From a virus, in the IMG/VR virus record IMGVR_UViG_3300030090_005562, positions 1-64,000 of that record: a stretch of 64,000 nucleotides of DNA. The stretch is one strand, 5' to 3'. Under the pieces are notes generated by a model. It saw only the letters and a program-made list of their open reading frames with translations. It did not search any database and had not been told where the DNA came from. Each line of letters opens with the position of its first letter. Position 1 is the first letter of the stretch. The translations under genes were made by a program, and so were the position numbers. Positions 17,260-52,685 of this stretch are shown piece by piece.

Positions 17260-17264
17260 ATTGT

Positions 17265-23945: not shown

Positions 23946-23964
23946 TTTAGGTTTTACAATAGTT

Positions 23965-24282
23965 ATGAGAACTTCTATAGACGTTAGCAAGCTTAAAAGA
24001 AACACAAAAATAATGGTTGAAACTGAGTCAACTGTTTTTGAAATCATTGTCACCGGACCAAAAACTGGGTCTGTGCTGGTTAGCGGAGGTATTGCTTTTG
24101 TAAGACCGACGAAAGCGAAAGTCGTTTGCCTAATCCAAAAGAGAAGGTCAATTGTATTTATGTACAAAAATAAAAACGGCAAAGACGATTCTTTTACAAC
24201 ATCACACGTTTTAAGCGCTACAGTTTCTTCTTCAGACGGTTCGTGGTATTATCACGCAATAGAGAAAAAAGAAAAATCATGA
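23965..24282 (+). CDS. Hypothetical beta-rich protein
   Basis: ORF fills the gap and is ATGA-coupled to the next gene. Start uncertain (23938 or 23965). Confidence 0.5.
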   Translation: MRTSIDVSKLKRNTKIMVETESTVFEIIVTGPKTGSVLVSGGIAFVRPTKAKVVCLIQKRRSIVFMYKNKNGKDDSFTTSHVLSATVSSSDGSWYYHAIEKKEKS

Positions 24283-25271: not shown

Positions 25272-26241
25272 GGACTCTAAGATATTAGTAACCGGAGCTT
25301 TAGGATTTTTAGGAAGGCATGTGTGTGAAGAGCTTCGCTCCAAAGGTTATTCAAACGTTATCGAATGTGCAAATAGCCACATAACAACGCGTTATTACAT
25401 TGACGGCAAAACTGGAGTTCATCACTGCGACCTAAGAGAGAAAGACTCATGCGGGTCTTTAATCACTCATAATGTTCCAGACGTTGTAATCCATCTAGCC
25501 GCTAGAGTTGGCGGCATTGGTGCAAACCAAGAACATCCAGGCACTTTCATACATGACAATTTGACAATGGGGGTAAACCTTATTCATGCCTGCAAGCACT
25601 ATGTTCAAAAGTTTGTTTTAGCAGGGACCGTCTGCTCGTATCCAAAATATGCAAAGGTTCCTTTTGAAGAACAGTTTATATGGGATGGTTATCCAGAAGA
25701 GACCAACGCCCCCTATGGAATAGCAAAGAAGACATTAACTGTTATGCTTGACGCCTATAGACAGCAATATGGATTAAACGGGATAACAGTTATACCGGTC
25801 AATATGTATGGCCCACACGATAATTTTAAACCGGAAAGCTCACATGTTATACCTGCATTAATTAAGAAAATAGAAGAGGCTGGTGAAAACGGCAGTCTAG
25901 AGATTTGGGGGACCGGTAACGCCAGCAGAGAATTCCTGCATGTTCGTGATTCTGCAAGAGGCATCGTCATGGCTGCTGAATCATATAACGACCCATCTCC
26001 AGTAAACTTAGGCACATATGATGAAGTCAGAATATGCGACCTTGTTCATATGCTAAGAGAGATAATGGGGCATAAGGGGCAGGTTGTATATAATAAAGAT
26101 AAGCCTGATGGTCAGCCTAGAAGATGCCTGCTAACCTCAAAGGCTAAAAGTGAATTTGGATTTTCAGCAGAAATAGGTCTAAAGGAGGGGTTGCAGGAAA
26201 CTGTCGATTGGTATTTATCAAATAAAAAGGTCGCAGTATGA
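25264..26241 (+). CDS. fcl: GDP-L-fucose synthase
   Basis: GALGFLG, LAARVGGIGAN, GTVCSYPK, YGIAKK, NMYGPHDNF, SHVIPALI, WGTGNASREF, KPDGQPRR. Confidence 0.93.
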   Translation: MDKDSKILVTGALGFLGRHVCEELRSKGYSNVIECANSHITTRYYIDGKTGVHHCDLREKDSCGSLITHNVPDVVIHLAARVGGIGANQEHPGTFIHDNLTMGVNLIHACKHYVQKFVLAGTVCSYPKYAKVPFEEQFIWDGYPEETNAPYGIAKKTLTVMLDAYRQQYGLNGITVIPVNMYGPHDNFKPESSHVIPALIKKIEEAGENGSLEIWGTGNASREFLHVRDSARGIVMAAESYNDPSPVNLGTYDEVRICDLVHMLREIMGHKGQVVYNKDKPDGQPRRCLLTSKAKSEFGFSAEIGLKEGLQETVDWYLSNKKVAV

Positions 26242-27155
26242 TAGAATCAGCTTACGCAGTAAAGTCTCATCCATTGAGCATAGTTATATTTTCAAAGGAC
26301 AGGGCGGCGCAACTAGACCTGTGTTTAAAATCTATACACGAAAATCTTTCTAATCTTTCCGAACATTGGAATATATATATAATATATACTTCTAGCTCTG
26401 AAGACTTTAAGAATGGTTATAGGCAATTAATGAAAGAGTGGTACTCAAAGCCTAATGCTATCTACTTTTTGCCAGAAGATAAATACAAAGGATTCAGAAA
26501 AACTTTAGAATACTGCATGAAGCATTGGGAAGAAATGGTTATGTTTTTTACCGACGATGATATAGTCTATAGAAAATTTGAATACCACTATAACATCTTT
26601 ACATGGGCGTCAAAAGCACACTGGCACCAACACGATTCTTTCTGTACATCGCTGCGGCTAGGAACAAACACTTTTGTTCAAGACCAATATACAAATAGCA
26701 ACTGTTTGATTCCTGATGAGGTTATAATGGGTGACGGGCCAGCGAGATTCTGGAATTGGAAGGAGCAACAAAAAGATACAAATTTTGCCTATCCCTTCTC
26801 TGTAGACGGACACGTATTTCCATTTCACATAGCTAAAAGAATGGTAAATAACACTCCAAAATACAATAATCCAAATAGCTTTGAAGGAAAAGCCCAAAAC
26901 TATATACAAGACAAAATAAAAACATTTCCAGACGAGATGTGCTGTTTTGAAAAAAGCTATGTAATAAATACACCGCTCAACAGAGTTCAGGAAACGTGTC
27001 ACAACGGAGCTGGTAAATTTTTTGGAAGCACGCCAGAAGAACTAAACAAAAAGTTTTTGGAGGGCAAAAGGCTGACCCTTGAAGGAATGGACTTTAGCAC
27101 TATTATTGGCGTTCATCAGGAACTTAAATTATGCTGGAATGACAAATGCTCTTAG
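26238..27155 (+). CDS. GT-A-like glycosyltransferase
   Basis: IFSKDRAAQL, FFTDDD, YPFSVDGH, NPNSFE. Confidence 0.65.
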   Translation: MIESAYAVKSHPLSIVIFSKDRAAQLDLCLKSIHENLSNLSEHWNIYIIYTSSSEDFKNGYRQLMKEWYSKPNAIYFLPEDKYKGFRKTLEYCMKHWEEMVMFFTDDDIVYRKFEYHYNIFTWASKAHWHQHDSFCTSLRLGTNTFVQDQYTNSNCLIPDEVIMGDGPARFWNWKEQQKDTNFAYPFSVDGHVFPFHIAKRMVNNTPKYNNPNSFEGKAQNYIQDKIKTFPDEMCCFEKSYVINTPLNRVQETCHNGAGKFFGSTPEELNKKFLEGKRLTLEGMDFSTIIGVHQELKLCWNDKCS

Positions 27156-27772
27156 ACTTTGAAAAACTACTTAAACAATACGACATGAGAATCAGCGGCG
27201 TGCTTCATGTTGGCGCGCACTTTGGAGAAGAATATCTTAGCTATGTAGACAACGGTATAAGCAGAGTGGTGTTCATAGAGCCGTTAAAGGAAAACTTCCA
27301 GGTTCTGGATGACAGGTTTGGAGCTATTGACGATGTTGTACTCATAAATAAAGGGGCCGGAAGCGAGAAGAAAGAGTTAAATATGTATAGGGCTTCAAAC
27401 GATTTAGTATCAAGCTCTGTACTGAAACCTAAGAGACACTTGTCTCAGCACCCAGACGTTTTGTTTGATAGCGGTGAAACAATTATTGAAATAGATAGAA
27501 TCGATAATATGCTGCAAGACATAACCCCATACAACTTCATGAACGTTGATGTTCAGGGTTACGAGCTAGAAGTATTCAAGGGGGCCGGAGATTACCTCGA
27601 TAAAATTGATTTCATCATGACAGAAGTAAATAGGGATGAGGTTTATGAGAATTGCGCGCAAATTGGACAAATAGACGAGTACCTCTTGACATACAGATTT
27701 AAAAGAGTTGAAACTAGCTGGGACGGTGATTGTTGGGGTGACGCTCTATACATTAAGGAGCAAATGCCTTGA
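27146..27772 (+). CDS. FkbM-family methyltransferase
   Basis: HVGAHFGEE, IEP, NVDVQGYELEVFKG, WGDALY. Confidence 0.9.
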   Translation: MLLDFEKLLKQYDMRISGVLHVGAHFGEEYLSYVDNGISRVVFIEPLKENFQVLDDRFGAIDDVVLINKGAGSEKKELNMYRASNDLVSSSVLKPKRHLSQHPDVLFDSGETIIEIDRIDNMLQDITPYNFMNVDVQGYELEVFKGAGDYLDKIDFIMTEVNRDEVYENCAQIGQIDEYLLTYRFKRVETSWDGDCWGDALYIKEQMP

Positions 27773-28692
27773 TTAACATATCCTGTATAAGCGACTCAAA
27801 TTACCTTACATACGGATTAGCGCTAATAGACTCAATCAAGTCAAACACAGAAGAAGATTTTTTAATTCACTATCTTTGCTTAGACGATGAAACAATCTCG
27901 ACGCTTGACTCTGTTGAAAATGTAAAAACATACAATATGTGCTGTATAGAAAAAGACCCAGCGTTTGAAATTTTAAAGAAAAATAACCCGTCAAAGCCTG
28001 GAAACCTATCGCCATTTCACTGGGCTCTAGCGTCTTTCTTCACAAACTACTTAATACAAGAGGTCGGTGTCCCTAGCTGCTTATACTGTGACACAGACAT
28101 ATGTTTTTATGACGACATAAATAAAATATTTGATTCCGCTAAGCTTGACGATATTGGGCTAGTTACACATAAGCATGTACCTCTTGATTATATGCAAAGC
28201 GTAGGTTACTATAATGTAGGGGTTGTGTATTTTAGCGGTTCTGAGAAATCAAAGAAATGCCTAAAGTTTTGGAGAAATTGTGTTGTAGACAAAGACAATC
28301 CTTACGCAGAAAAGTTTGGAACTTGCGGAGACCAAAAATATCTAGAGCTTTTCCCATTTATATGCGATGATGTAAAAATAAATGTGTTAGACCATACAAT
28401 AGGACACGCCGCCCCATGGAACTTCAGTCTGTCTGCTATACACAATAAAAAGTTGACCTGGGACATGGGACCGGCGTTCTTTGACTGTCATGTTACCGGA
28501 GAGCATGAAACAACACAGGATTTAATCTTTATACATTTTTCTCACTTTAGCCCAGATTACGATAACGATGCTTATAAAATAGACTTTGAAGGGGAATGGG
28601 GCAACGTACTTCCTCAGCCTGGAGTAGAGGAAGCATATGACCAATATTTTGAGCTATGCAAAAATACAAAAAGAAAGTATAACATATCATGA
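27769..28692 (+). CDS. GT8-like / nucleotide-diphospho-sugar transferase
   Basis: DSNYL, YCDTD (DxD), YNVG, GDQKYL, APWN, FIHFS. Confidence 0.75.
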   Translation: MINISCISDSNYLTYGLALIDSIKSNTEEDFLIHYLCLDDETISTLDSVENVKTYNMCCIEKDPAFEILKKNNPSKPGNLSPFHWALASFFTNYLIQEVGVPSCLYCDTDICFYDDINKIFDSAKLDDIGLVTHKHVPLDYMQSVGYYNVGVVYFSGSEKSKKCLKFWRNCVVDKDNPYAEKFGTCGDQKYLELFPFICDDVKINVLDHTIGHAAPWNFSLSAIHNKKLTWDMGPAFFDCHVTGEHETTQDLIFIHFSHFSPDYDNDAYKIDFEGEWGNVLPQPGVEEAYDQYFELCKNTKRKYNIS

Positions 28693-29576
28693 ATATCGCC
28701 TTTGGAATGATAGTCTTTAATGGAAACTACGTGCTTAAAGAATGTCTTGAGTCAGTTTATCCATTCGCAAGCCAAATTTTGATTTCTGAGGGGCCAGTAA
28801 AGTATTGGCAAGAGCAGGGAAATGAAACTTCAACTGACGGCACAAATGATATTCTACATGAGTTCTATGACCCAGATAACAAGATTGTTATTGAGCATGG
28901 CCAGTTTGAAGAAAAAAACGAGCAGTGCAACAGGTACATGAAACACATGCGCGACGACACCGACTATATATGGAACTTAGACTCAGACGAAATATTTAAA
29001 CCAGAAGATATACAGCTAGTAATTCAAGCTTTAAAAGATTACAACTTTACCTCCGTTGGATTTAAAAGCTTTTCTTTTTACGGCGGGTTTGACCATTACT
29101 TGACAGGGTTTGAGGAAGACGCTGAATTTCACAGAATAAGAAAGGTATATCCAGGCTCATACTGGTCAACGCATAGACCGCCAACTATAGCACATAAAGT
29201 TCAGCCCACTTTACAAGAGCTTCATTTGTCGTATAATATGTTGGCTAGCTACGGAGTTCGCATGTATCATTATTCATACGTTTTTCCGTGGCAGGTCAAA
29301 CAAAAGGTGCAATACTACAAGTCTGCCGTAAGTCGAGACAATTGCATAGACGATTATTACGAAAAGATATACGAGCCTTGGGTTAATAATCCTGAACTTA
29401 GACAAGAAATAGAAAAAGAGTGGGAGGGTGTACACGAATTCAAACCACAGTACAGAGGACCGTGCTACACAAAAAGGTTTGAAGGACAGCATCCGCCAAA
29501 GATATTGCAAAATATTGACGCTCTTAAAGATAAATTTAACAACCAACTGAAAGATGTGTGGTATGAAAACCTATAA
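28689..29576 (+). CDS. GT2-like glycosyltransferase
   Basis: MIVFN, SEG...STDGT, LDSDE (DxD), HYSY. Confidence 0.75.
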   Translation: MNIAFGMIVFNGNYVLKECLESVYPFASQILISEGPVKYWQEQGNETSTDGTNDILHEFYDPDNKIVIEHGQFEEKNEQCNRYMKHMRDDTDYIWNLDSDEIFKPEDIQLVIQALKDYNFTSVGFKSFSFYGGFDHYLTGFEEDAEFHRIRKVYPGSYWSTHRPPTIAHKVQPTLQELHLSYNMLASYGVRMYHYSYVFPWQVKQKVQYYKSAVSRDNCIDDYYEKIYEPWVNNPELRQEIEKEWEGVHEFKPQYRGPCYTKRFEGQHPPKILQNIDALKDKFNNQLKDVWYENL

Positions 29577-30183
29577 TGACTCAGGATGGAAATCTGCAAG
29601 CGCAGAGGCATTTCAGCAACAGTTTGTGCTAAACCTTAGAGAACTAAATGACCCACCCACTCATTGGAGGTTTTTTTTAGAGGAGCTAGGCAGAATAAAA
29701 GATTCAAAAAGGGTCGTAGATATAGGGTGTGGAGTAGGCTCTTTTTCCAAGCTAATTCGCATGTGGCATGGCGATTTAAATTATGTAGGATATGATTATT
29801 CAGCAGCCGCCATAGAAACAGCTAAAAATATGTGGGGTGAATTTGGCGTGTTTGAAGAGAGAGACTATCATGATATTTCTAGTAAAGATATGCAGGACGG
29901 AGACGTTATAGTTGCCAATGCTTTGTGCGATGTTCTTCCAGATGGTGACGAGTGCTTTGAGCATATTCTATCACTGGGCGCAAAGAATGTAATTTTTTTA
30001 AGAGTTAGGATTACAGAAAAAGAAAGCTTTTATGAAGAATATGAAGCGTACAGTGAAATTCAAACCTATGCGTTTTATCACAACGAGGCGGGTTTGGATG
30101 AAATAATTAAAAAGCATGGTTATAATCCGCCCAGATTTAACCACTATTCTGAAAATATGATAAACATTCATCTAGAAAAATGA
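29554..30183 (+). CDS. Class I SAM-dependent methyltransferase
   Basis: VDIGCGVG, GYDYS. Confidence 0.85.
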   Translation: MCGMKTYNDSGWKSASAEAFQQQFVLNLRELNDPPTHWRFFLEELGRIKDSKRVVDIGCGVGSFSKLIRMWHGDLNYVGYDYSAAAIETAKNMWGEFGVFEERDYHDISSKDMQDGDVIVANALCDVLPDGDECFEHILSLGAKNVIFLRVRITEKESFYEEYEAYSEIQTYAFYHNEAGLDEIIKKHGYNPPRFNHYSENMINIHLEK

Positions 30184-30812
30184 AGCAAATTAAAGCTGTA
30201 ACTCCGACACTTTTTGTAAAATCAAAGATGGCTATAGTCGGCTCATCGTCATCTTTATTGGATACGGAGCAAGGACAGGATATAGACGATTTTGATGAAG
30301 TCGTAAGGTTTAACAGGGCTCCAACAGAGGGTTGGGAAAATCATGTTGGTTCAAAAACAACGCTTAGAGTCGCCAACAATCATGTGTTTGCAAATGTAAA
30401 GCATAATGTGGGTGGAGATGAGGATTGTGAGGATTGGAAGCCGCAAGGACAGCCCCAAAACTTTATAAGAGATTTGAAAAATCAAAAAATATTATTGCTT
30501 AACAGAGACTACTCCGCATGGGAAGAAAAAGAAAAACACATAGACTCAAGCTCCGCCGCATTTTTAGGAAATTATTTATGCGTTGAATCTTTTGGGGGAA
30601 CTCGTTCCCCAAGCGTTGGATATGCTTTTATATCCTTGTGTATAATGAATGGAATTAAACCAACTTTGTTTGGCTTTGGACTAAAAGAAGACGATGAAAA
30701 AGCAAGTCACTATTGGGAAAATAAAGATAAAATTATTTCTAGTCACGGATATAAGCTCGAAAGAGAGAACATTGCAAAATGGCACGAAACAGAAAAATTG
30801 CTAATAAAATAG
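30180..30812 (+). CDS. GT29-family sialyltransferase-like protein
   Basis: Sialylmotif L (AIVGSS..LL....G.DID.FD.VVRFNRAP....E.HVGSKTT), S (PSVG...FGF), III (HYW) and VS (HGYKLE). Confidence 0.85.
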   Translation: MKQIKAVTPTLFVKSKMAIVGSSSSLLDTEQGQDIDDFDEVVRFNRAPTEGWENHVGSKTTLRVANNHVFANVKHNVGGDEDCEDWKPQGQPQNFIRDLKNQKILLLNRDYSAWEEKEKHIDSSSAAFLGNYLCVESFGGTRSPSVGYAFISLCIMNGIKPTLFGFGLKEDDEKASHYWENKDKIISSHGYKLERENIAKWHETEKLLIK

Positions 30813-31711
30813 CCAAGAACCTTGTCGTACCCATACCAGCAATGTATGACAACTGTGGCGGGATAAATAAATTAAGCACGTTTAATTACCTAGAGTTTTT
30901 AAAGAATAGCGGCGTTAAGTGCGTGATGACCACTGCCGGAACTTCTCAGTTTAACATGCTTGCAAAAAGAGATGTGGCAAGGCTTAATTATATTGTGTGT
31001 GCTGATGGTTTTGATTCTTATATACTTGGAATACATCCAACAAACACAGCAAGAACAATAGAGCAAATAAAGTCTCTGCAAAAAATGCTTGGAAAAAAAT
31101 CTAACAAGTGTATTATGCTTTTATATCCAGAGAGATATTATGACGATGAAACAATAGTTAATCATTTTTATAGGTGTGCAGATGCGTCTGAGATTCCAGT
31201 GATAATCCACGCTATGTTTATGCGTCAAGGGACCGGTGGCTGGTATGATTATTCTTCAAAACTCATAAATAAATTGGTTGAACATTCAAACATTATTGGT
31301 ATAAAAGAAGAGACCTCTGAGTTAGGAAAAGCATATAATATATGCAATCAAATAGATAAGGACGAGTGTCTTATTATAGCTGCTGGTGGCAGCATGCGTA
31401 GATATAATGCGCTGAAGCCGACAGGAGTTCAAACATGGCTTTCTGGAGTCGGCAACATGTTCCCAGAAGCAGAGCTGGCTTTTAGAAAAGACACATCAAA
31501 ATTAAACATTATTAAAGATTTTGAAAATCCTATGTTTGATGTGTTCATGAAAATAGGATGGCACAAGGCCATGAGAGAAGCAATTAGACAGCTTGCTATT
31601 GGATGTGTTGTTAATGGAGAGCCATTTGCAAAAATAAGCTCAGAGGAACGTTCTGCGATTACTAATGTACTACAGGAATTGAAAGAAAAATGTCAGAAAC
31701 ATGGATTTTAG
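30779..31711 (+). CDS. DapA/N-acetylneuraminate lyase family aldolase
   Basis: GTSQF (GTTGE-like), YPERY, IIGIKEE Schiff-base Lys. Confidence 0.75.
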   Translation: MARNRKIANKIAKNLVVPIPAMYDNCGGINKLSTFNYLEFLKNSGVKCVMTTAGTSQFNMLAKRDVARLNYIVCADGFDSYILGIHPTNTARTIEQIKSLQKMLGKKSNKCIMLLYPERYYDDETIVNHFYRCADASEIPVIIHAMFMRQGTGGWYDYSSKLINKLVEHSNIIGIKEETSELGKAYNICNQIDKDECLIIAAGGSMRRYNALKPTGVQTWLSGVGNMFPEAELAFRKDTSKLNIIKDFENPMFDVFMKIGWHKAMREAIRQLAIGCVVNGEPFAKISSEERSAITNVLQELKEKCQKHGF

Positions 31712-32475
31712 GCCCCTGTGGCATAGATAACGTAGAGATGTATATAGAGACATGCAGGTTTCTTGTTCCGTTTATGGACGGGAAAGATTGGTACTATAAA
31801 GCGTCTTTTGACAAGGCAAACCGAACATCTATAAATGGAGAAAGATGCGTTGGCCTTGAAACTGGAATAAAAGCTTTCGAGCAAGTAAAAGCCATGTTTC
31901 CAGGAATAAGGCTTGTAACAGACGTTCATGAGTGCCATCAAGTTGAGAAGCTGGCTCATGTAATTGACGTTATACAGATACCGGCGTTTCTTTGCAGGCA
32001 AACAGACTTAATTGTGGAGTGCGCCAGACATTTTGACACAGTAAATGTAAAGAAGGGTCAGTGGATTGGTCCGAATAATCTTGTGGCGTCTGTAGACAAA
32101 ATAAGGCACACAAACGATAATTGTAAAGCTTGGATTACAGACAGGGGGTCAAACTTTGGCTATGACAAGCTAATTGTTGATTTTGGAATCGTAGACGAGC
32201 TTAAAGAAAGCTACGATAAAGTTATATTAGACTGTACACACTCCACGCAAAGAAGTAGAACTGTATACGGAAAACAGGGTGATGTTGAGCTTGCTAAAAG
32301 ATATTTTCTTGCCGCACCTATTTTTGAATATGATGGTGTTTTTGTAGAAACTCACCCCAATCCGTCAGAGTCCTGCTCTGATAAAGAGTGCCAAATACCC
32401 TTAGACGAAATGATAGACTTACTAGCAGAACAGAGGATTATATCGCATGCAAACGATAAAAGAATTTCAATCTGA
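31690..32475 (+). CDS. kdsA: 3-deoxy-8-phosphooctulonate (KDO8P) synthase
   Basis: GPC, KASFDKANRTS, TDVHE, QIPAFLCRQTDL, NVKKGQ, RGSNFGY, DCTHS, ETHP. Confidence 0.92.
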   Translation: MSETWILGPCGIDNVEMYIETCRFLVPFMDGKDWYYKASFDKANRTSINGERCVGLETGIKAFEQVKAMFPGIRLVTDVHECHQVEKLAHVIDVIQIPAFLCRQTDLIVECARHFDTVNVKKGQWIGPNNLVASVDKIRHTNDNCKAWITDRGSNFGYDKLIVDFGIVDELKESYDKVILDCTHSTQRSRTVYGKQGDVELAKRYFLAAPIFEYDGVFVETHPNPSESCSDKECQIPLDEMIDLLAEQRIISHANDKRISI

Positions 32476-33154
32476 ATTACTTAAAGACGCAGAGAGCATG
32501 CGTAATGACTCTCAACTTCAAGATGACGCGTTTAGTGTTTTAGTTAGAGCAGACCGGCATAGATGGATACATCAAACTAATTTCGCTGGCATTCCAGCCC
32601 TACAACTTCCTCAAGACCTGTTTACTATGCAGGAGATTATATTTAAGACTAAACCTCAAGTTATTGTAGAGCTTGGAGTGGCTTGGGGAGGAACTACAAT
32701 GTTCTTTGAGTCTTTTCATCAAGGGGATATTATTGGGGTTGACCTGCAAATACCAGACCACCTCAGAGATGCAACTGCGTTTAAGGGCAATATCAGATTT
32801 CTTATTGGCGATAGCGTTTTGAGCGCAGAAATAGTGAAAAAATTTGTTGGGGATAGAAGCTGCATGGTAATAGTAGATTCTATGCATACCCACGAACACG
32901 TTCTTGCCGAATTGAACGCCTTCTCTAGCATTGTTACTCCTGGCTGTTACATGGTTGTGTGTGATACTTTAGTCGATGACTCAAGATATCACGAAGACGG
33001 AGCCGCTAGAAATCGCCCTTGGGGTCCAGGCAATAGCCCCAGAAGCGCTTTAAATCAGTTTCTCGATGAAAACCCAGATTTTGAAAGAGACGAAGATATA
33101 CGAAATAAACTTCTGTTTTCTTGTCAACCAGATGGATATATATATAAAAAATGA
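32447..33154 (+). CDS. CmcI-family (cephalosporin hydroxylase / rhamnosyl O-methyltransferase-like) methyltransferase
   Basis: QLPQDL, KPQVIVELGVAWGG, DSMHTHEHVLAEL, WGPGNSP, PDGY. Confidence 0.88.
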   Translation: MQTIKEFQSELLKDAESMRNDSQLQDDAFSVLVRADRHRWIHQTNFAGIPALQLPQDLFTMQEIIFKTKPQVIVELGVAWGGTTMFFESFHQGDIIGVDLQIPDHLRDATAFKGNIRFLIGDSVLSAEIVKKFVGDRSCMVIVDSMHTHEHVLAELNAFSSIVTPGCYMVVCDTLVDDSRYHEDGAARNRPWGPGNSPRSALNQFLDENPDFERDEDIRNKLLFSCQPDGYIYKK

Positions 33155-34170
33155 AAGACTTATTAACGCTAGTTGTGCCTCTTTTAGATAGGCATGCCTT
33201 AACACACAGGGTTCTTCAGAACCTTAATAGGCAAAAGTGTGAATTTAAAATAATAGTTGCTGACGGCAGCTTAACGGAATTTAATAAAGAGCGTCTGAAG
33301 CAGGGGGTGTTTTATGAAAATCTAGACATTGAGTATTTTTATAATGGCCATGACTATGACATAAACCGATATATGAATAAAATGCACAACGCATTTCAAA
33401 AAATATCCACCCCTTTTGCGATGATATTTGATAACGACGATTTGATAGACATCTCTGGAATCAGAAGAGGTGTTTACTTTATGTCAAATAATTTAGATTA
33501 CAGCACATATAGAAACGACGTTAGAACTCTAGAGTTTTCAGATAGTTATGTTGACATAAAAGACAGCCTATATACATACCCATCCATTGAGCAGGAAGAG
33601 GCTAAAGATAGACTGATTGATTCTGTGATAAATTTTAACAGTTTTAATTATGCAGTTTTTAGGTCTGAGCAAATAAAGTGCTTTTTTGAAATTATGGATT
33701 TGTTTGACAACAACGACTTCCAACTTTTTTCAAAATCATTAGCGTACTTTTTTGCGTCTATAGGCAAGTGCAAAAGGCTTTTTAACGAATCTTACTACTA
33801 TTTTATACCTGGATATACAATATTACAAACTGGGAATAAGATACACAAGTTTAGAGAATGGATGGACACAAAATTTTGGGACAAGTCATGCCCCTTAATG
33901 ATTTCGATGGCGTCTTCAATATGCGAGCATTTGCACAAAGAAGATGTTCGACGGCCATTCGCGGAAGTTTTTATCAAAGAGGTCTGCGAAAAGGCGGGGA
34001 TTAGTGATTCACAATATAAAAATTTAAACAGAGATATAGAAGAGTCTAAAAAATTTGACTCTAAAATACGTCAAGTATTAGAAAAATATAAATTTGAGGA
34101 CAAAGAATATGGTTGCGAGCAGTGTGATGCAAAGACAAATGAGGAGTTTGTACAATCGCTAAACATATAG
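33151..34170 (+). CDS. GT2-like glycosyltransferase (TIGR00180-like)
   Basis: VVPLLDR, IIVADGS, FDNDD. Confidence 0.7.
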   Translation: MKDLLTLVVPLLDRHALTHRVLQNLNRQKCEFKIIVADGSLTEFNKERLKQGVFYENLDIEYFYNGHDYDINRYMNKMHNAFQKISTPFAMIFDNDDLIDISGIRRGVYFMSNNLDYSTYRNDVRTLEFSDSYVDIKDSLYTYPSIEQEEAKDRLIDSVINFNSFNYAVFRSEQIKCFFEIMDLFDNNDFQLFSKSLAYFFASIGKCKRLFNESYYYFIPGYTILQTGNKIHKFREWMDTKFWDKSCPLMISMASSICEHLHKEDVRRPFAEVFIKEVCEKAGISDSQYKNLNRDIEESKKFDSKIRQVLEKYKFEDKEYGCEQCDAKTNEEFVQSLNI

Positions 34171-35033
34171 TGTTAGATTCTTTAGCTCGCTCAGGCACCA
34201 CCTTGTTGAGTGCGCTATTAAGAAGTCAGAAGAATACAATTGCTTTTTGCCCAGGATTTAACGAACCTCTATGTTGCGAAAACATAGGGGAATGGCCTCA
34301 TGGATTTTGCAAAAGCGAATTTGTTGAAAACCCAAAATTTGATTTCAAAAAATTTCAAGAAGAAAGCATTTCACATATAAAAGACTTTGCGCAGTATTAT
34401 GGAATTGAAGCGTCTGATTGGGAAAAGCTGATATTAGATAGCGATAGCGCACAAGAGATTAGAAGTAAAATAGAAAATAAATTTAGTGAATGTAAATTTA
34501 TATGCTATAGATGGAATCAATGCCTTTGGTATTTTTACGAGTGGGTTTCAAGGGGCGAAGATTTTTTATGGCTAACAATGATAAGGAACCCTCTTGATAG
34601 GGCATGCTCATCTTGGAAAAAACACAGGTGGAGCATAAAACAAAGTCTAGAGAATACAATGCATTTCGCGCACAAAGTTGAGCAAATTTCAAATCATAAA
34701 AATTTTCACCTTATATATTATGAAGACCTTGTAAGCAATCCAGAGAAAATACTCAAGGAGATTTATTCTTTTTTTGGACAAAACATTCAATATGTAAACT
34801 TAAGTAATATAAAGGGGTCAAATGGGGAGGACTTTATTCCACAAAGCTCTGACTTAAAGAATGTATATCAAAAAAAAGACGGCTACTTAACTGAAGGAGA
34901 CGCGTTTTCTGGATTGTATAATAGTAAGATAAATAGGTATAAAGACGAAGAATACATAGACGAAATTACATATCAAGCCTTTAAGAGATTTTTATCAGAG
35001 TTCAGCGTTTACAAAAGATACTTTAAGGATTAA
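34170..35033 (+). CDS. Sulfotransferase
   Basis: PAPS-binding RSGTTLL, IRNPLDRACS, YYEDLVSNPE. Start may be further upstream (see findings). Confidence 0.85.
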   Translation: MLDSLARSGTTLLSALLRSQKNTIAFCPGFNEPLCCENIGEWPHGFCKSEFVENPKFDFKKFQEESISHIKDFAQYYGIEASDWEKLILDSDSAQEIRSKIENKFSECKFICYRWNQCLWYFYEWVSRGEDFLWLTMIRNPLDRACSSWKKHRWSIKQSLENTMHFAHKVEQISNHKNFHLIYYEDLVSNPEKILKEIYSFFGQNIQYVNLSNIKGSNGEDFIPQSSDLKNVYQKKDGYLTEGDAFSGLYNSKINRYKDEEYIDEITYQAFKRFLSEFSVYKRYFKD

Positions 35034-35034
35034 A

Positions 35035-35661
35035 ATGGATTTATTAGCATTTAACGGACAAATGAACTTTATACTTGATAAAATATCAGGTGTAGATGGA
35101 GATATAGTTGAACTCGGCGTTCATACGGGAAACAACTCTATACAGTTCATGCTTCAATCTCCACAAACAAAATATTGGGGATTTGATACATTTTGCGGCT
35201 ACACAAAAGAGGACATTGAAAGCAGTCCAAATAAACAAGGCCTTTTAGATAATGAGGGCAGATGGGTTTGCGACGAAAATGAAACAATAGATAGAATAAA
35301 GAGATTTAGGGGGCTCATCAAAGAGATAACTCCTAGCGATAAAAAATTTGCAAATTTTGAAATAATAAAAGGAGACCTAAAGAAGACTTTGCCTGAACAA
35401 ATAAACTCAAACAATCTAAAGAAAGTCGCGTTGCTATATGTAGATTGTAATGCATATTTACCAGCAATAAAAGGAATAGAGGCTATATACCCAATACTTT
35501 CAAGAGAAGGAATAATTTGCATAGACGAACACCAGGACGGAGGAGAGACTAAGGCAATAAAAGAAACTGCACAAAAATATGGGTTGGATATTAACGAGAC
35601 AGGTTTTAAATTTGAAAGTGGAATTCATTCTAATCCCTCTAAATACATTGTAAAAAAATGA
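35035..35661 (+). CDS. TylF/MycF-family O-methyltransferase
   Basis: GDIVELGV, GFDTFCG, KG...TLP, LLYVDC.AY, IDE. Confidence 0.85.
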   Translation: MDLLAFNGQMNFILDKISGVDGDIVELGVHTGNNSIQFMLQSPQTKYWGFDTFCGYTKEDIESSPNKQGLLDNEGRWVCDENETIDRIKRFRGLIKEITPSDKKFANFEIIKGDLKKTLPEQINSNNLKKVALLYVDCNAYLPAIKGIEAIYPILSREGIICIDEHQDGGETKAIKETAQKYGLDINETGFKFESGIHSNPSKYIVKK

Positions 35662-36350
35662 AAAGACTGGCTATTATTCCCGCAAGAAGCGGAAGCAAAA
35701 GATTCCCAGGAAAAAATTGGGCAAAGTTAGGAGAGCATCCTTTGTGGCTGTGGAGCGTTGAGGTTGCCTCTGTTGCTTTTGAAACCACTGTTTTCACAAC
35801 AGACTCAGAAAACCTTCTGCACGATGTTATAAATAGAGAAGGGAGTTTCGTGACAGGGCTTCTTAGGCCTAAAAATCTATGCTCAGATACATCTAAAGTT
35901 ATAGATACGGTGAATTGGATTTACGATATATATGACAAAAAGCCAAGCAAGCCTGATGAGATATGGCTCCTTCTTCCAACTTGCCCGCTAAGAAAAGTTG
36001 AGGATGTAACTAATGCTCAGAACAAATTAAGAGACAGCGATGAGTGTGACGGCATAATTAGTATTACAGATTATGAGTTTCCTCCTCAGCTTGGATTGAC
36101 ACATGAGAATGACCAGATAATGGATTGGCATGAAAGTAAACCCTGGCAGTCTGGAAACAGTAGAAGTCAAGACCACGAAAAAATATACAGACCAAACGGA
36201 GCGCTTTACGGAATGAGGTGGGAGGCATTTAGAAAAAACAGAAATTTCTATAAAGGAAAAATATGCAGTCACTATATGCCTAGAGAGCGCTCAGTTGACA
36301 TAGACAATGAAATTGATTTAAAATTAGCGGAGGCGTTAATACATGAATGA
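35658..36350 (+). CDS. neuA: Acylneuraminate cytidylyltransferase (NeuA/PseF-type)
   Basis: IIPARSGSKRFPGKN, LPTCPLR, RSQD...NGALY, SVDIDNEIDL. Confidence 0.88.
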   Translation: MKRLAIIPARSGSKRFPGKNWAKLGEHPLWLWSVEVASVAFETTVFTTDSENLLHDVINREGSFVTGLLRPKNLCSDTSKVIDTVNWIYDIYDKKPSKPDEIWLLLPTCPLRKVEDVTNAQNKLRDSDECDGIISITDYEFPPQLGLTHENDQIMDWHESKPWQSGNSRSQDHEKIYRPNGALYGMRWEAFRKNRNFYKGKICSHYMPRERSVDIDNEIDLKLAEALIHE

Positions 36351-36981
36351 CATATTAAGACAGGTGTATGAAAATGGGTTATACGTGTTTCCAGAACTTG
36401 TTGAAGATAGTGTGGTACAAAATATAAAAAAGCAAACACTAGCTTTGCTCGAACGGGACGGAGACAAAGATTACAAATTTGGAACAGCCATAAATATGGG
36501 GCCTTTGTCAGAGCAGTCTGGTTCAATAAAAGATTTTTTTGATACAGAATATTTTAACGATATCGCATTTAGGTACGGAACAAGAGACGCCAGAGCAGTA
36601 ATGGCTACTCACGATTATGAAAACGATAACGGAACTGAAAGGAATGGGTTTCTTCATTTTGACAGAACTCATACGTTCAAGTTTTTTCTTTATCTCACCG
36701 ACTGCGATGAATCTAGCGGAGCGTTTAAATACGTCCCTGGTTCTAGGGAGCTAGGCGAAACTTTAAGAACACAGGCAACTATTGACGCTGACGGAGAATA
36801 CAAAACAATAGCTAATAGATTAGAGCTAGATTATTTAGATTTAAACTACACGGCAGAGGACGCCGAGCCACTTGTTGGCAAGGCCGGAACTCTGTTTGCT
36901 TTTGACACAGACACATTCCACATGGGTGGTATAGTACAAAATGGAAAAGAAAGGGTTGTAATTAGGTCACATTATGTCTAA
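36343..36981 (+). CDS. Phytanoyl-CoA dioxygenase-like 2OG-Fe(II) oxygenase
   Basis: HFD, YLTD, GAFKYVPGS, AGT...FD..HMG...R. Confidence 0.82.
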   Translation: MNDILRQVYENGLYVFPELVEDSVVQNIKKQTLALLERDGDKDYKFGTAINMGPLSEQSGSIKDFFDTEYFNDIAFRYGTRDARAVMATHDYENDNGTERNGFLHFDRTHTFKFFLYLTDCDESSGAFKYVPGSRELGETLRTQATIDADGEYKTIANRLELDYLDLNYTAEDAEPLVGKAGTLFAFDTDTFHMGGIVQNGKERVVIRSHYV

Positions 36982-38149
36982 AACAAAATTTTTAGATTTG
37001 GGCACACAGCCCATCGCAAACGGGTTTTTAAAAGAATCAGACCTGGATAAAGATGAGTATACCTTTAATTTATCTGTTGGCATATGTAGTGATACGTTTT
37101 TGGTTTCTCTTGTGGATTTTGTAGACCCGCCAAAAATGTTCAATGAAAGCTATCCATTCCACACATCCGCTTCTCCAGTAATGGAGTCTCATTTTAAGAG
37201 AACGTCTAATTTATTATCAAAATTAAATCCAGACAAAGTCATGGAGATAGGAAGCAATGATGGAGCGTTCTTGAAAAATTTTCACCCATCTAATGCCATA
37301 TCAGTAGAGCCATGTTCTAATTTTGCTAGACATACACAAGAACTTGGATATACAACCTATGATGAGTTTTGGACACAAGAACTCGCAGACCGTATATGTT
37401 CATCCAATGGAAAGCAAGACCTAATATTTTCTGCGAACTGCATGTGTCATATACCAGACATAGAAGGCGCGTTTAAAGCGGTTGCCTCTTGTCTTAGCAA
37501 GGATGGGGTTTTTGTTTTTGAAGACCCGTCACTTGTGTTTATGCTTATGAGAAACTCGTATGACCAAATATATGATGAACACGCACACATATTCTCCCTA
37601 CATTCTTTATCCATACTGCTTAAAAGAGCCGGTCTAAAGATATGGAAGGTTGATGTTCTTGAGAATGTGCATGGAGGCTCTTGTAGGGTTTATGCTGTTC
37701 ATGAAAACAACCCCGTAAAAAAGCTTGATTCCACACTAATGCAGTTTGAGAGAATTTGCGGAATAAACAAGAGTGGGTTTGAAATATATTACTCGTTTGC
37801 TAGGAACGTGCAGAAAAGCAAAGAGGCTCTTGTTGACGCTCTATCTGGTCTAAAAGACAAGGGGAAGAAGGTTATCAGCTTTGGAGCAACCTCCAAGTCT
37901 ACCACAGTATTTAATTATTGCGGAATTGGCAATGACTTAATAGACTATATAACTGATAGGACAGATGATAAGATTGGAAAATTCTCTCCGGGCAAACACA
38001 TACCGATTATAGCAGAAGGAGTGGGGTTTGATGATTCTGTTGACGCTGCATTTCTTGGCGCTTGGAATTATAAGGACGCGATACTTACTAAGTATTCAGA
38101 TTTTAAAGGCTCTTGGATTACTCACGTTCCAGAGGTTTCTGTAATATGA
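36974..38149 (+). CDS. NDP-hexose C3-methyltransferase
   Basis: LDLGTQPIAN, EIGSNDG, YDQIYDEH, HGGS, GATSKS, KIGKFSPG, AWNY. Confidence 0.9.
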   Translation: MSKTKFLDLGTQPIANGFLKESDLDKDEYTFNLSVGICSDTFLVSLVDFVDPPKMFNESYPFHTSASPVMESHFKRTSNLLSKLNPDKVMEIGSNDGAFLKNFHPSNAISVEPCSNFARHTQELGYTTYDEFWTQELADRICSSNGKQDLIFSANCMCHIPDIEGAFKAVASCLSKDGVFVFEDPSLVFMLMRNSYDQIYDEHAHIFSLHSLSILLKRAGLKIWKVDVLENVHGGSCRVYAVHENNPVKKLDSTLMQFERICGINKSGFEIYYSFARNVQKSKEALVDALSGLKDKGKKVISFGATSKSTTVFNYCGIGNDLIDYITDRTDDKIGKFSPGKHIPIIAEGVGFDDSVDAAFLGAWNYKDAILTKYSDFKGSWITHVPEVSVI

Positions 38150-39048
38150 AAATTTTGGTGACAGGCGGTCTTGGTCATATAGGCTCTTACGTTATAAGGA
38201 CTACGTTTGCTGGCAGAGGAATTTGTGTGGTTGACGATTTATCAACTAACAGATATTGCTCCCTAATGAACCTTCCGTACCCAATAGATTTTATTAATGA
38301 TGGGTTTGAGAATCTCAGCGAAGACTTTTTAGAGCAGTTTGATACAGTCGTGCATTTTGCTGCGGTAACAGACGCGGCTAGAGGAGACTCTGAAAGCATC
38401 GAGAAAATAAATGTTGGTCACACCAGAGACTTTATAAAAAAGCTTATGTCTCTGGACAGCCCTCCTTTGTTTATATTCCCGTCATCAACAAGCGTTTATG
38501 GAACCGCGTCTGATATAGTCAAGGAAGATGACGAAAGCGTTTTAAAGCCACAAAGCCACTACGCATCATCAAAGCTAATAATAGAAAATTTCCTCAGAGA
38601 AAATTATCCTAGATATTTGATTCTCAGATTCGGTACAATATTTGGAGCAACTCCAGGAATGAGATTCCACACAGCAATCAATCACTTCTGCTGGGCTTCT
38701 TCAATGAAACAGCCGTTAGAAGTTTGGGAGCAAAACTATCATTATCACAGGCCGTATCTAGACGTAAGGGATGCGGAAAGGTCTATTTCACACCTTCTTT
38801 ATAATCGCGTTGAAAATGAAACCTACAATATTCTTAGCGACAATTATAAGTGTAGCGATATAATAGAGATTATAAAAGAATACGTGCCAGATATTAAAGT
38901 AAATATGGTTAAAACGCCTCTCTTAAATCAGTTCTCATATCTTGTTGACGACACTAAGTTAAGCAATACTGGAATAAATTTAAACGGCAGCTTAAAGAGG
39001 GGTATAAAAGAGACATTGGAGATTCTTAAATGCGTAAAAAGATATTAA
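38146..39048 (+). CDS. NAD-dependent epimerase/dehydratase
   Basis: GGLGHIG, SSTSVYG, YASSK, RFGTIFG. Confidence 0.88.
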   Translation: MKILVTGGLGHIGSYVIRTTFAGRGICVVDDLSTNRYCSLMNLPYPIDFINDGFENLSEDFLEQFDTVVHFAAVTDAARGDSESIEKINVGHTRDFIKKLMSLDSPPLFIFPSSTSVYGTASDIVKEDDESVLKPQSHYASSKLIIENFLRENYPRYLILRFGTIFGATPGMRFHTAINHFCWASSMKQPLEVWEQNYHYHRPYLDVRDAERSISHLLYNRVENETYNILSDNYKCSDIIEIIKEYVPDIKVNMVKTPLLNQFSYLVDDTKLSNTGINLNGSLKRGIKETLEILKCVKRY

Positions 39049-39743
39049 TCTCTGGAGGAGATGGAAAATTCGCCAAACAGCTTTTTTCCTGCGGCTGCGA
39101 TATTTTTGAGATAAGCAAGCCGTCTAGAAAAAATATGAATATATCAAGCCCACGCGATATTTACTCAAACATAGTTAGGTTTAATCCCGATTATTTCATT
39201 CACGCTGCCGCTATGACGCGACCCATGAAAAACCATGAGATAGCCCCCATGAAAAGCATGAAAATAAATATTGAGGGAACATGCAATGTCGTAGAGGCTT
39301 GTTGCACTACTGGCATAAAGCTTATATACATATCAACAGACTATGTATATCCAGGTAGAGATGGAAATTATTCTGAAGATGACGGAGTTCTCCCGTTCAC
39401 TAAATATGGTTGGTCAAAGCTTGGCGGTGAGTGTGCAGTAAAAATGTATGAAAAGTCTTTGATACTTCGTATAGCTATGTGCGAGAAGCCTTTTCCTCAT
39501 CCAGCAGCCATGATAGATGTTAAGAAAAGCTCTATTTTTAATGACGATGCAGCAAAAATTACTTTACAATTACTTGATGAAGTTGGTATAATAAATATTG
39601 GAGGACCAAATCAATCCATATACGATTTTGTAAGCTCGCATCAGGACGTAGATTCTATGACTAGAAACAGAGCAGATTCCAGCATGATGCCAGACGTTAG
39701 CATGAACACGGAGAAACTAGATGAGATTTCACGAAGACGATAG
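39030..39743 (+). CDS. rmlD: dTDP-4-dehydrorhamnose reductase-like
   Basis: GGDGKF, HAAAMT, ISTDYVY, YGWSKLGGE. Confidence 0.8.
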   Translation: MRKKILISGGDGKFAKQLFSCGCDIFEISKPSRKNMNISSPRDIYSNIVRFNPDYFIHAAAMTRPMKNHEIAPMKSMKINIEGTCNVVEACCTTGIKLIYISTDYVYPGRDGNYSEDDGVLPFTKYGWSKLGGECAVKMYEKSLILRIAMCEKPFPHPAAMIDVKKSSIFNDDAAKITLQLLDEVGIINIGGPNQSIYDFVSSHQDVDSMTRNRADSSMMPDVSMNTEKLDEISRRR

Positions 39744-40104
39744 AGCGCAAAGATTTTGCGATATTTTTCCAGAGGCAGGTGGACAAACTATGGTCTCAAG
39801 GATAAGAGCTCCTGGTCATGTTGTTGCTTGGCACAGACATAAAATACAAAATGATTACTGGTGCTGCTTGCAAGGCTCTTTTAAAGTTGGATTGGCAAAA
39901 GAAAATGGAGATTTTGAGTTTGTATATCTATCCGAAAGAAACCCAAGGACAATACACATACCTCCTGGGATATATCATGGCTACATGGCGTTAGAGCCAA
40001 ACTCCATTCTGCTATATTATATGGACCAGCCTTACGACCCATCAGACGAATACAGGGCCGAAGTAGGGCATTTTGGAGATGAATGGAGCATACCCAACAA
40101 ATGA
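39721..40104 (+). CDS. rmlC: dTDP-4-dehydrorhamnose 3,5-epimerase-like cupin
   Basis: HEDDR, AWHRH, IPPGIYHGY, LYY...YDP..E. Confidence 0.75.
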   Translation: MRFHEDDRAQRFCDIFPEAGGQTMVSRIRAPGHVVAWHRHKIQNDYWCCLQGSFKVGLAKENGDFEFVYLSERNPRTIHIPPGIYHGYMALEPNSILLYYMDQPYDPSDEYRAEVGHFGDEWSIPNK

Positions 40105-42022: not shown

Positions 42023-42392
42023 TAAAGACGATAGAGGTAGGCTAATATCCATGAATGATTTAATTTCTAGCATACCATTCACGGTTAAGAGGTTCATGGA
42101 CATCAGTGGAGTTCCTAATGGGCAGACAAGAGGATATCACGCACATAAAACTAATGAACAGTTGCTGCTTTGCTTTAAGGGTCGAGTGGTGGTTAGGACA
42201 GTGCTGAAAAACTCTGCGGGAGAGCTTGTAGAACAGTCACACGAACTTAATGAGGGCGACTTTTTACACACACCTGCCATGACATGGGGCGAACAAACTT
42301 ACTATGACGATGCGATTCTGCACGTTCTTTGCTCTAAAAAATATGATGAGGATGATTATGTCAGAGACTATGAAGAATTTAAAGAACTTTAG
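42009..42392 (+). CDS. FdtA/QdtA-type sugar 3,4-ketoisomerase (cupin)
   Basis: DDRGRL, PFTVKR, RGYHAHK, YDEDDYVRDY. Confidence 0.88.
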   Translation: MLNINKDDRGRLISMNDLISSIPFTVKRFMDISGVPNGQTRGYHAHKTNEQLLLCFKGRVVVRTVLKNSAGELVEQSHELNEGDFLHTPAMTWGEQTYYDDAILHVLCSKKYDEDDYVRDYEEFKEL

Positions 42393-52684: not shown

Positions 52685-52685
52685 T

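What the first reader, a model, noticed from the sequence alone, without database searches (positions are those of the whole stretch)
30180..36350. Phage-encoded ulosonic-acid pathway: KdsA + aldolase + CMP-transferase + eukaryote-type GT29 sialyltransferase
Seen: the 210 aa ORF has all four GT29 sialylmotifs (L, S, III HYW, VS HxxxxE), but no transmembrane anchor and Met in place of the motif-L Cys. It is translationally linked to a DapA/NanA-family aldolase and a metal-type (GPC) KdsA, with a NeuA-type cytidylyltransferase 3 kb downstream. Known: GT29 enzymes use CMP-activated ulosonic acids and are mostly eukaryotic. KdsA normally pairs with KdsB and GT30 WaaA, not with NeuA and GT29. Inference: the phage synthesises, activates and transfers a Kdo/Kdn-like acidic sugar by a non-canonical route, decorating its virion or the host surface.
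Basis: partly seen in the sequence, partly recalled or inferred. Interest (0 to 1): 0.85.

Follow-up and report, generated by a model that had tools for sequence, protein, structure and literature searches.

The report
Phage Kdo-type sugar module with soluble GT29
An uncultured marine tailed phage carries a membrane-free gene set that most likely makes an eight-carbon acidic sugar of the Kdo type, activates it with CMP and attaches it with a miniature relative of animal sialyltransferases; the same untested gene set recurs in many marine phages, and one of its core enzymes has no known role in such pathways.

Summary
ORF 30180-30812 is a real GT29-family protein: Pfam 77 bits against a cutoff of 23, all four sialylmotifs, and a predicted fold (pLDDT 91) closest to ST3Gal-I, ST8SiaIII and ST6Gal1. 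It overlaps a DHDPS-superfamily gene, which overlaps a metal-type KdsA. The contig's only CTP_transf_3 enzyme, 3 kb downstream, is NeuA/PseF-like, not KdsB-like.

- "Eukaryote-type" is wrong. The lack of an anchor and of the motif cysteines is typical of the bacterial GT29 branch (Petit 2018). This short form has at least 178 clusters in metagenomes.
- The "aldolase" is not NanA or DapA. It keeps the Schiff-base Lys, but His replaces the catalytic Tyr in every member.

In 27 viral loci, 23 GT29 genes sit within 10 kb of KdsA (10) or NeuB (13). DHDPS-like then KdsA is a fixed pair. The DHDPS-like tree splits 100/100 by synthase type, whereas GT29 and the cytidylyltransferase do not. The closest relative (GT29 89% identical) has swapped KdsA for NeuB.

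None of the 34 island proteins has a membrane segment or export function, and the island abuts the virion module. This favours virion glycosylation but does not prove it.

The scan has noted this module before on other phage genomes. It is a new variant of a known kind.

The parts
30180..30812 (+). Soluble 210-aa GT29-family glycosyltransferase (short bacterial/phage form); proposed inverting CMP-ulosonate transferase
   Evidence: PF00777 77 bits; motifs aligned to ST3Gal-I; invariant H177, Y178, H189, E194; AF2 pLDDT 90.9, with top Foldseek hits all GT29 and then GT42; no TM segment
30779..31711 (+). Divergent DHDPS/NAL-superfamily TIM-barrel enzyme (Schiff-base Lys176 kept, His144 in place of the catalytic Tyr); obligate partner of KdsA; reaction unknown
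   Evidence: PF00701 34 bits; Lys and His invariant in 14-15 orthologs; fold TMq about 0.8 to DHDPS, KdgD and NanA alike; always directly upstream of KdsA; clade splits 100/100 by synthase type
31690..32475 (+). Metal-type KDO8P synthase (KdsA)
   Evidence: NF003543 243.9 bits against a cutoff of 242; Aquifex KDO8PS E 5e-51 with Cys/His/Glu/Asp and KANR[ST], PAFLCRQTD kept; L7 loop divergent
32447..33154 (+). CmcI/rhamnosyl-type O-methyltransferase, recurrently next to KdsA
   Evidence: PF04989 174 bits; same family directly after KdsA in L005 and L006
33151..34170 (+). Glycosyltransferase (TIGR04440 domain)
   Evidence: TIGR04440 116 bits against a cutoff of 70
34170..35033 (+). Sulfotransferase
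   Evidence: PF13469/PF00685; sulfotransferases also lie beside the cytidylyltransferase in L002, L020 and L028
35035..35661 (+). TylF-type O-methyltransferase
   Evidence: PF05711 31 bits
35658..36350 (+). NeuA/PseF-type cytidylyltransferase; the only CTP_transf_3 on the contig; proposed CMP-ulosonate synthetase
   Evidence: PF02348; PseF model 118 bits over the full length, KdsB models N-terminus only; NeuA structures 6ifd, 9ftb, 1eyr over the full length; single copy; present in 20 of 27 GT29 loci
36343..36981 (+). PhyH-family Fe(II)/2-oxoglutarate dioxygenase, overlapping the cytidylyltransferase; possible sugar hydroxylase
   Evidence: PF05721 47 bits; found in 13 of 27 loci, and lies between KdsA and the cytidylyltransferase in L015/L016
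29554..30183 (+). Class I SAM methyltransferase directly upstream of GT29 (4-nt overlap)
   Evidence: PF13847 55 bits; conserved in 17 of 27 loci
17250..42392 (+). Surrounding glycan island: about 11 GTs, dTDP-sugar enzymes, aminotransferase and C-, O-methyl- and sulfotransferases, all predicted soluble
   Evidence: Pfam; no TM segment

Best explanation
This is a phage-encoded, fully cytoplasmic module that makes and transfers a CMP-activated octulosonic acid. Proposed steps: (1) The metal-dependent KdsA condenses PEP with arabinose-5-phosphate supplied by the host, giving Kdo-8-phosphate. (2) A host enzyme, or a phage enzyme not yet identified, removes the phosphate. (3) The DHDPS-like Lys/His enzyme forms a Schiff base at C2 of the 2-keto-3-deoxy acid and tailors it; C4 epimerisation through retro-aldol/aldol or a KdgD-like dehydration are the chemically plausible options. 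The PhyH dioxygenase may add a hydroxyl. (4) The NeuA/PseF-type cytidylyltransferase makes the CMP-beta-ulosonate. (5) The soluble GT29 transfers it with inversion onto an oligosaccharide built by the island's other glycosyltransferases, and this glycan is further O-methylated and sulfated. The acceptor is most likely a phage virion protein. Shown here: family and fold assignments, catalytic-residue conservation, gene order, co-occurrence and co-evolution. Inferred: every substrate, the order of steps 2-4, the role of the DHDPS-like enzyme, and the target.
For: GT29 family and fold. KdsA with intact metal, PEP and A5P motifs. The contig has only one CTP_transf_3, which is NeuA-like, and has no NeuB, GT30, KdsD or KdsC, so KdsA is the only ulosonate synthase and GT29 the only ulosonate-type transferase. 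The order GT29, DHDPS-like, KdsA, then cytidylyltransferase recurs in 10 complete viral loci and two cut at contig ends; it is a compact run of five adjacent genes in L015/L016. 23 of 27 GT29 loci have KdsA or NeuB within 10 kb, while KdsA occurs in only 4 of 50,697 deposited phages. The DHDPS-like tree splits 100/100 by synthase type. A Pelagibacteraceae genome has GT29, cytidylyltransferase and NeuB adjacent. The plant GT29 RCKT1 is a putative CMP-beta-Kdo transferase. For a cytoplasmic or virion target: 0 of 34 island proteins have a TM segment; there is no Wzx/Wzy, ABC exporter or initiating phosphoglycosyl transferase; and the island converges on the virion module with giant proteins.
Against: No biochemistry exists for any short GT29. 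The closest relative (GT29 89% and cytidylyltransferase 86% identical) carries NeuB plus a different DHDPS-like protein plus a kinase instead of KdsA. So either these two enzymes are promiscuous or the products are not simply Kdo and a nonulosonate. The activator is not KdsB-like. No phosphatase or A5P isomerase was found, and the contig is only about 60% complete. The KdsA L7 loop differs from canonical enzymes. KdsA passes one equivalog cutoff by 2 bits and fails another, TIGR01362. Nothing identifies the acceptor.
Confidence: 0.55

Rival explanations
1. The chemistry is the same, but the target is the host cell surface (LPS, capsule or S-layer glycan). The phage remodels the envelope during infection, for example for superinfection exclusion or to escape grazers, and uses host lipid carriers and exporters.
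For: This is the published reading of KdsA/'KdsB' and glycosyltransferase genes in large cyanomyoviruses (PMC12801897). Kdo is an LPS and capsule sugar. The cellular GT29 homologs sit in surface-glycan-like clusters.
Against: No membrane protein, flippase, polymerase, exporter or initiating transferase occurs among the 34 island proteins. The island sits against the virion module. A lytic jumbo phage has little time to rebuild an envelope with an 11-GT glycan.
Confidence: 0.25
2. GT29 and the NeuA-type enzyme handle a nine-carbon nonulosonic acid made by the host or by genes in the missing 40% of the genome. KdsA and its partner serve another purpose, such as sustaining host Kdo supply.
For: The near-identical GT29 and activator work beside NeuB in L002-L004. 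13 of 27 loci are NeuB-type. The activator is NeuA/PseF-like. The contig is about 60% complete.
Against: KdsA lies between GT29 and the activator in overlapping reading frames. The DHDPS-like/KdsA pair is found next to GT29 in 10 loci. No NeuB is present in 149 kb.
Confidence: 0.12
3. The glycan is attached to phage DNA bases (hypermodification), as shown for phage GTs that put Kdo-like sugars on 5hmC.
For: There is precedent for Kdo-like sugars on phage DNA (bioRxiv 10.1101/2023.12.21.572611). The island begins directly after the DNA polymerase genes. ORF 22487 gives a weak, sub-threshold TAGT hit.
Against: No thymidylate-synthase-like hydroxymethylase, C5-methyltransferase or Tet/JBP was found on the contig (the Tet search had no positive control). 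The known DNA GTs are GT-B enzymes, not GT29. About 11 GTs plus sulfo- and methyltransferases far exceed known DNA glycans.
Confidence: 0.05

Closest known systems
Bacterial GT29 sialyltransferase-like proteins (Petit et al. 2018, PMC5811610)
   Same: All four sialylmotifs are present. There is no transmembrane anchor and no motif L/S disulfide cysteines. The distribution is in marine bacteria. Function is untested.
   Different: Here the protein is phage-encoded, only about 210 aa, and genetically tied to KdsA or NeuB plus a cytidylyltransferase. That paper reports neither viral members nor this gene context.
Eukaryotic GT29 enzymes: mammalian ST3Gal-I, ST8SiaIII, ST6Gal1; plant RCKT1/MGP2 (putative CMP-beta-Kdo transferase, PMC11288761)
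   Same: Family, fold, and the motif III His-Tyr and motif VS His...Glu residues are shared. RCKT1 gives a precedent for a GT29 that uses CMP-Kdo.
   Different: There is no Golgi anchor, stem or disulfide. Identity is 17-20% over the fold. The setting is cytoplasmic, and the acceptor is unknown.
Canonical bacterial Kdo pathway (KdsD, KdsA, KdsC, KdsB, then WaaA GT30 or KpsC/KpsS, WbbB GT99)
   Same: KdsA has intact catalytic motifs, the sugar is CMP-activated, and transfer is to a glycan.
   Different: No KdsD, KdsC, KdsB or GT30 is present. The activator is NeuA/PseF-type and the transferase is GT29. A DHDPS-like enzyme with no counterpart in the pathway is an obligate partner.
Nonulosonic-acid clusters (NeuB/PseI/LegI + NeuA/PseF/LegF + sialyltransferase)
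   Same: The logic of synthase, cytidylyltransferase and transferase is the same. Sister phage loci and a SAR11 genome use NeuB in the same slot.
   Different: In this phage the synthase is KdsA (8-carbon chemistry), with no NeuB on the contig.
Synechococcus phage S-SCSM2R KdsA/'KdsB' (PMC12801897)
   Same: It is a marine tailed phage with adjacent KdsA and a CMP-transferase, among many GT genes.
   Different: Its KdsA is only 39% identical. No GT29 or DHDPS-like homolog of the window proteins was found in deposited phages apart from one huge phage. The paper reads the genes as host cell-wall modification.

Membership tests
CAZy GT29 / Pfam PF00777 | Profile match above the curated cutoff | tested here: met
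   77 bits against 23, E 2e-21, profile positions 58-270 of 272
CAZy GT29 / Pfam PF00777 | Sialylmotifs L, S, III (H-Y-W/F) and VS (HxxxxE) | tested here: met
   Aligned to ST3Gal-I; R43, F44, N45, H177, Y178, H189, E194 invariant in 36 sequences
CAZy GT29 / Pfam PF00777 | GT-A variant fold of sialyltransferases | tested here: met
   pLDDT 90.9; top 30 Foldseek hits are all GT29 (E about 1e-9, TMq 0.52-0.68), followed by GT42 CstII/CstI
CAZy GT29 (eukaryotic branch) | Type II membrane anchor, stem, and the conserved motif L to motif S disulfide | tested here: not met
   No hydrophobic segment; Met at the motif-L Cys position. These traits are also absent from bacterial GT29.
CAZy GT29 | Transfer from a CMP-activated ulosonic acid | not testable with these tools
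   Supported only by gene context
KDO8P synthase (KdsA) | Equivalog-level profile score | tested here: inconclusive
   NF003543 243.9 against 242 (passes); TIGR01362 232.8 against 314 and NF009109 173.9 against 457 (fail)
KDO8P synthase (KdsA) | Metal ligands Cys/His/Glu/Asp and the KANRS, PAFLCRQTD substrate motifs | tested here: met
   Alignment to Aquifex 1fwn; conserved in 9 phage orthologs. The L7 loop is divergent.
Canonical Kdo pathway | KdsD, KdsC, KdsB and a GT30 transferase present | tested here: not met
   No SIS, KdsC or GT30 on the 149-kb contig, which is about 60% complete. The only CTP_transf_3 is NeuA-like.
CMP-nonulosonate synthetase (NeuA/PseF/LegF) | Full-length similarity to NeuA/PseF rather than KdsB | tested here: met
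   PseF model covers residues 4-227 at 118 bits, below its equivalog cutoff of 205.7. NeuA structures align over the full length at E 1e-17. KdsB models cover residues 1-65 only.
DHDPS/NAL class I aldolase superfamily | TIM-barrel fold with Schiff-base Lys | tested here: met
   PF00701 34 bits; Lys176 invariant; TMq about 0.8 to DHDPS, KdgD and NanA
DapA or NanA proper | Catalytic Tyr (DapA Y133 / NanA Y137), the GxxGE motif, and an equivalog score | tested here: not met
   Tyr is replaced by His144 in all members. GTTGE is replaced by AGTSQ[FY]. dapA scores 37 against 206 and NanA 20 against 281.

The most novel reading that the evidence does not exclude
The short soluble GT29 is a prokaryotic/viral Kdo-type transferase, the counterpart of plant RCKT1. 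The Lys/His DHDPS-like enzyme that co-evolves with the synthase catalyses an undescribed tailoring step, so the phage makes a new methylated or sulfated ulosonic acid that caps a glycan on its own virion proteins.
Probability: 0.3. Interest if true: 0.75.

Novelty: new variant of a known kind. Interest (0 to 1): 0.6.

Why it matters
No bacterial or viral GT29 has been characterised, and the origin of the eukaryotic sialyltransferase family is debated. This module offers small, soluble, easily expressed GT29 enzymes with their presumptive donor pathways encoded alongside. That makes donor specificity (Kdo against nonulosonic acids) directly testable and could connect to the plant Kdo-transferase hypothesis. 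It also points to an unstudied enzyme in ulosonic-acid biosynthesis, the Lys/His DHDPS-like partner. And it suggests that large marine phages build complex acidic, methylated and sulfated glycans without any membrane machinery, which may affect adsorption, particle stability and recognition.

Tried and rejected
1. Chance or mis-annotation of GT29 was rejected on profile, motif and fold evidence.
2. A 'eukaryote-derived' gene was rejected. The short form has at least 178 clusters at 50% identity (E <= 1e-30), and homologs occur in SAR11, Opitutales and Flavobacteriaceae genomes.
3. The missing pathway steps were searched for on the contig, and none was found: SIS/KdsD, KdsC, NeuB, GT30, or a second CTP_transf_3.
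4. ORFs lying inside type A modules of other loci were scanned for a phosphatase. Only methyl- and sulfotransferases, a GSCFA protein and dTDP-sugar enzymes turned up.
5. DNA-hypermodification prerequisites were searched for and not found. The Tet/JBP search had no positive control.
6. The fold search of the DHDPS-like model could not discriminate DHDPS, KdgD and NanA.
7. The DHDPS-like protein was searched for in the four cellular genomes that carry GT29. Only one weak hit appeared, at 29% identity.
8. Nucleotide search of the 6-kb region against deposited phages gave no match.
9. Literature searches found no paper on phage GT29 or on this gene set.

Full report
**What the window is.** The window is the first 64 kb of a 148,761-bp IMG/VR viral record that CheckV rates about 60% complete. 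Bases 3-17 kb encode a phage replication module: a UvsX/RecA-like protein, DnaB, a primase, a PD-(D/E)XK nuclease and a split DnaE. The minus-strand block from 45 to 95 kb encodes giant proteins, a virion structural protein, the major head protein, portal and large terminase. Between them, at 17.2-42.4 kb, lies an unbroken run of overlapping + strand genes for glycan synthesis. These are about eleven glycosyltransferases, dTDP-sugar enzymes, an aminotransferase, C- and O-methyltransferases and a sulfotransferase. The finding covers the middle of this island.

**Check of the observation.** All stated ORFs exist, with the stated overlaps.
- The 210-aa protein matches Pfam GT29 at 77 bits against a cutoff of 23.
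- phmmer aligns its motif L, and its motifs S and III, to porcine ST3Gal-I and to ST6Gal1, ST8SiaIII and ST6GalNAc2.
- In an alignment of 36 homologs at 37-89% identity, the motif III His-Tyr (H177, Y178) and the motif VS His and Glu (H189, E194) are invariant.
- An AlphaFold2 model (pLDDT 90.9, pTM 0.89) finds only GT29 structures at the top of a PDB fold search (E about 1e-9). GT42 CstII/CstI follow.
- The Met in place of the motif-L Cys and the absence of any anchor are also confirmed.
- KdsA passes the NF003543 equivalog cutoff narrowly but fails TIGR01362. It is most like the metal-dependent Aquifex enzyme, and it retains the Cys, His, Glu and Asp ligands and the KANR[ST] and PAFLCRQTD motifs.
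- The cytidylyltransferase aligns end to end with NeuA structures and the PseF model, but with KdsB models only over its first 65 residues.

- The GT29 is not 'eukaryote-type'. Petit et al. 2018 (PMC5811610) described bacterial GT29 sequences from marine bacteria that have the four sialylmotifs but lack the anchor and the disulfide cysteines.
- The short form is abundant. 173 proteins were found by word-seeded search, all carrying PF00777. An exhaustive profile search gave 178 clusters at 50% identity with E <= 1e-30.
- Homologs occur in a Pelagibacteraceae single-cell genome, two Opitutales MAGs and a Flavobacteriaceae MAG.
- A GT29-Kdo link has a precedent. The Arabidopsis GT29 protein RCKT1/MGP2 is required for the Kdo residue of rhamnogalacturonan-II and is proposed to be a CMP-beta-Kdo transferase (PMC11288761).
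- The 'aldolase' is not a NanA or DapA. Its Pfam score is low (34 bits) and it fails the dapA and NanA equivalogs by a wide margin. It has the superfamily TIM-barrel fold (TMq about 0.8, resembling DHDPS, keto-deoxy-galactarate dehydratase and NanA about equally at 15-22% identity). Across 15 orthologs the Schiff-base Lys is invariant, the catalytic Tyr is always His, and the GxxGE motif is replaced.

**Gene context in relatives.** Twenty-seven IMG/VR loci encode a relative of the GT29. tblastn with the window's proteins and with those of the closest relative gave the following:

| Feature within 10 kb of GT29 | Loci (of 27) |
|---|---|
| KdsA | 10 |
| NeuB | 13 |
| Cytidylyltransferase | 20 |
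| PhyH dioxygenase | 13 |

- Three of the four loci without a synthase end at a contig edge where one is expected (L010, L023, L026). The fourth, L027, has the most divergent GT29.
- In every KdsA locus the DHDPS-like gene lies directly upstream of KdsA. In L015/L016 the module is five adjacent genes: GT29, DHDPS-like, KdsA, PhyH and cytidylyltransferase.
- Many loci are near-duplicates. There are 22 distinct GT29 sequences, so the counts overstate independence.
- Even so, KdsA is very rare in phages overall: 4 of 50,697 deposited records, all under 40% identical. The DHDPS-like protein has no match there, and GT29 matches only one 484-kb huge phage, which has four GT29 copies beside a NeuB.

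**A cassette swap.** The closest relatives (L002-L004) have a GT29 that is 89% identical and a cytidylyltransferase that is 86% identical to the window's. The slot between GT29 and the CmcI methyltransferase differs, however. It holds a NeuB-SAF-sugar-isomerase fusion, a different DHDPS-like protein and an APH-like kinase, where the window has DHDPS-like plus KdsA.

**Trees.** The DHDPS-like proteins split with 100/100 support into a clade always found with KdsA and a clade always found with NeuB. GT29 and the cytidylyltransferase do not follow the synthase type. The synthase and the DHDPS-like enzyme therefore form a co-evolving, exchangeable sugar-making unit, and the activator and transferase are more generic. 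This argues that the DHDPS-like enzyme acts on the synthase's product or substrate. It also warns that the donor specificity of GT29 may be broad.

**Proposed mechanism.**
1. Host A5P and PEP are condensed by KdsA to give Kdo8P.
2. The phosphate is removed by an enzyme not identified here.
3. The acid is tailored by the Lys/His DHDPS-like enzyme, and perhaps by the PhyH dioxygenase.
4. The NeuA-type enzyme activates it with CMP.
5. GT29 transfers it with inversion.

The contig has no KdsD, KdsC, NeuB or GT30 and no second CTP_transf_3, but about 40% of the genome is missing. O-methyl- and sulfotransferases recur inside the module in several loci, so the final residue or its neighbours are probably methylated or sulfated. 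All substrates are inferred.

**Target.**
- Virion proteins: none of the 34 island proteins has a TM-like segment. No flippase, polymerase, exporter or initiating phosphoglycosyl transferase is present. The island ends against the virion module. This favours cytoplasmic glycosylation of virion proteins.
- Host surface: modification through host machinery is the published reading for cyanophage KdsA/'KdsB' (PMC12801897) and is not excluded.
- DNA: glycosylation has a precedent for Kdo-like sugars. Here it lacks the base-modifying enzymes, and it does not fit the size of the island.

**Novelty.** The parts are known families, and bacterial GT29 and phage KdsA have been reported. I found no paper describing phage GT29, the GT29/DHDPS-like/KdsA/NeuA-type module, or the Lys/His DHDPS-like subfamily. 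This scan has noted the same module on other phage genomes (e1-5784242, e1-5359821, e1-5954515). It is therefore a recurrent, uncharacterised variant of the CMP-ulosonic-acid pathways and not a one-off.

**Limits.** The contig is incomplete. No host is assigned.

Noticed in passing
window 30813-32446 versus L002:10630-14222: Clean cassette exchange between near-identical phages. DHDPS-like + KdsA (1.7 kb) is replaced by a 617-aa NeuB-SAF-xylose-isomerase-like TIM fusion, a second type of DHDPS-like protein and an APH-like kinase (3.6 kb). The flanking GT29 and CmcI methyltransferase stay 88-89% identical.
   Followed up: partly
L035 (LR756508.1) 12267-16974; L020 9548-11536: Tandem arrays of short GT29 genes: four copies beside a NeuB in a 484-kb huge phage, and two copies ahead of DHDPS-like/KdsA in L020. 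This suggests diversification of acceptor or donor specificity.
   Followed up: no
window 34170-35033; L002:15823-17636; L020:14023-14712; L028:14014-14664: Sulfotransferases recur inside the phage ulosonate modules. Sulfated glycans made by phages appear little studied, and no PAPS-synthesis gene was looked for.
   Followed up: no
window 31690-32475, residues about 200-212: The KdsA L7 loop, which closes over the A5P phosphate in canonical enzymes, reads RSRxVYGxQGD in most phage orthologs in place of the glycine/serine-rich canonical loop. The aldose substrate may therefore differ.
   Followed up: partly
window 23205-23945: A MobA-like NTP_transf_3 nucleotidyltransferase lies in the glycan island. 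It is a second sugar or polyol activation enzyme of unknown substrate.
   Followed up: no
G000 92769-93836 (outside the window): A further nucleotide-sugar epimerase (phrog_540, 260 bits) lies immediately beside the large terminase gene, far from the main glycan island.
   Followed up: no
window 45056-63802, minus strand: A run of giant proteins (2542, 545, 213, 550, 1356, 598 and 975 aa) has almost no Pfam or PHROG matches and lies directly next to the glycan island. They are candidate fibre or decoration proteins and candidate acceptors for the glycan.
   Followed up: no
L032 525-2859 (Pelagibacteraceae SAG AG-390-M14): A SAR11 genome fragment carries GT29-like, cytidylyltransferase and NeuB genes in a row. 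This is a compact cellular counterpart of the phage type B module.
   Followed up: partly
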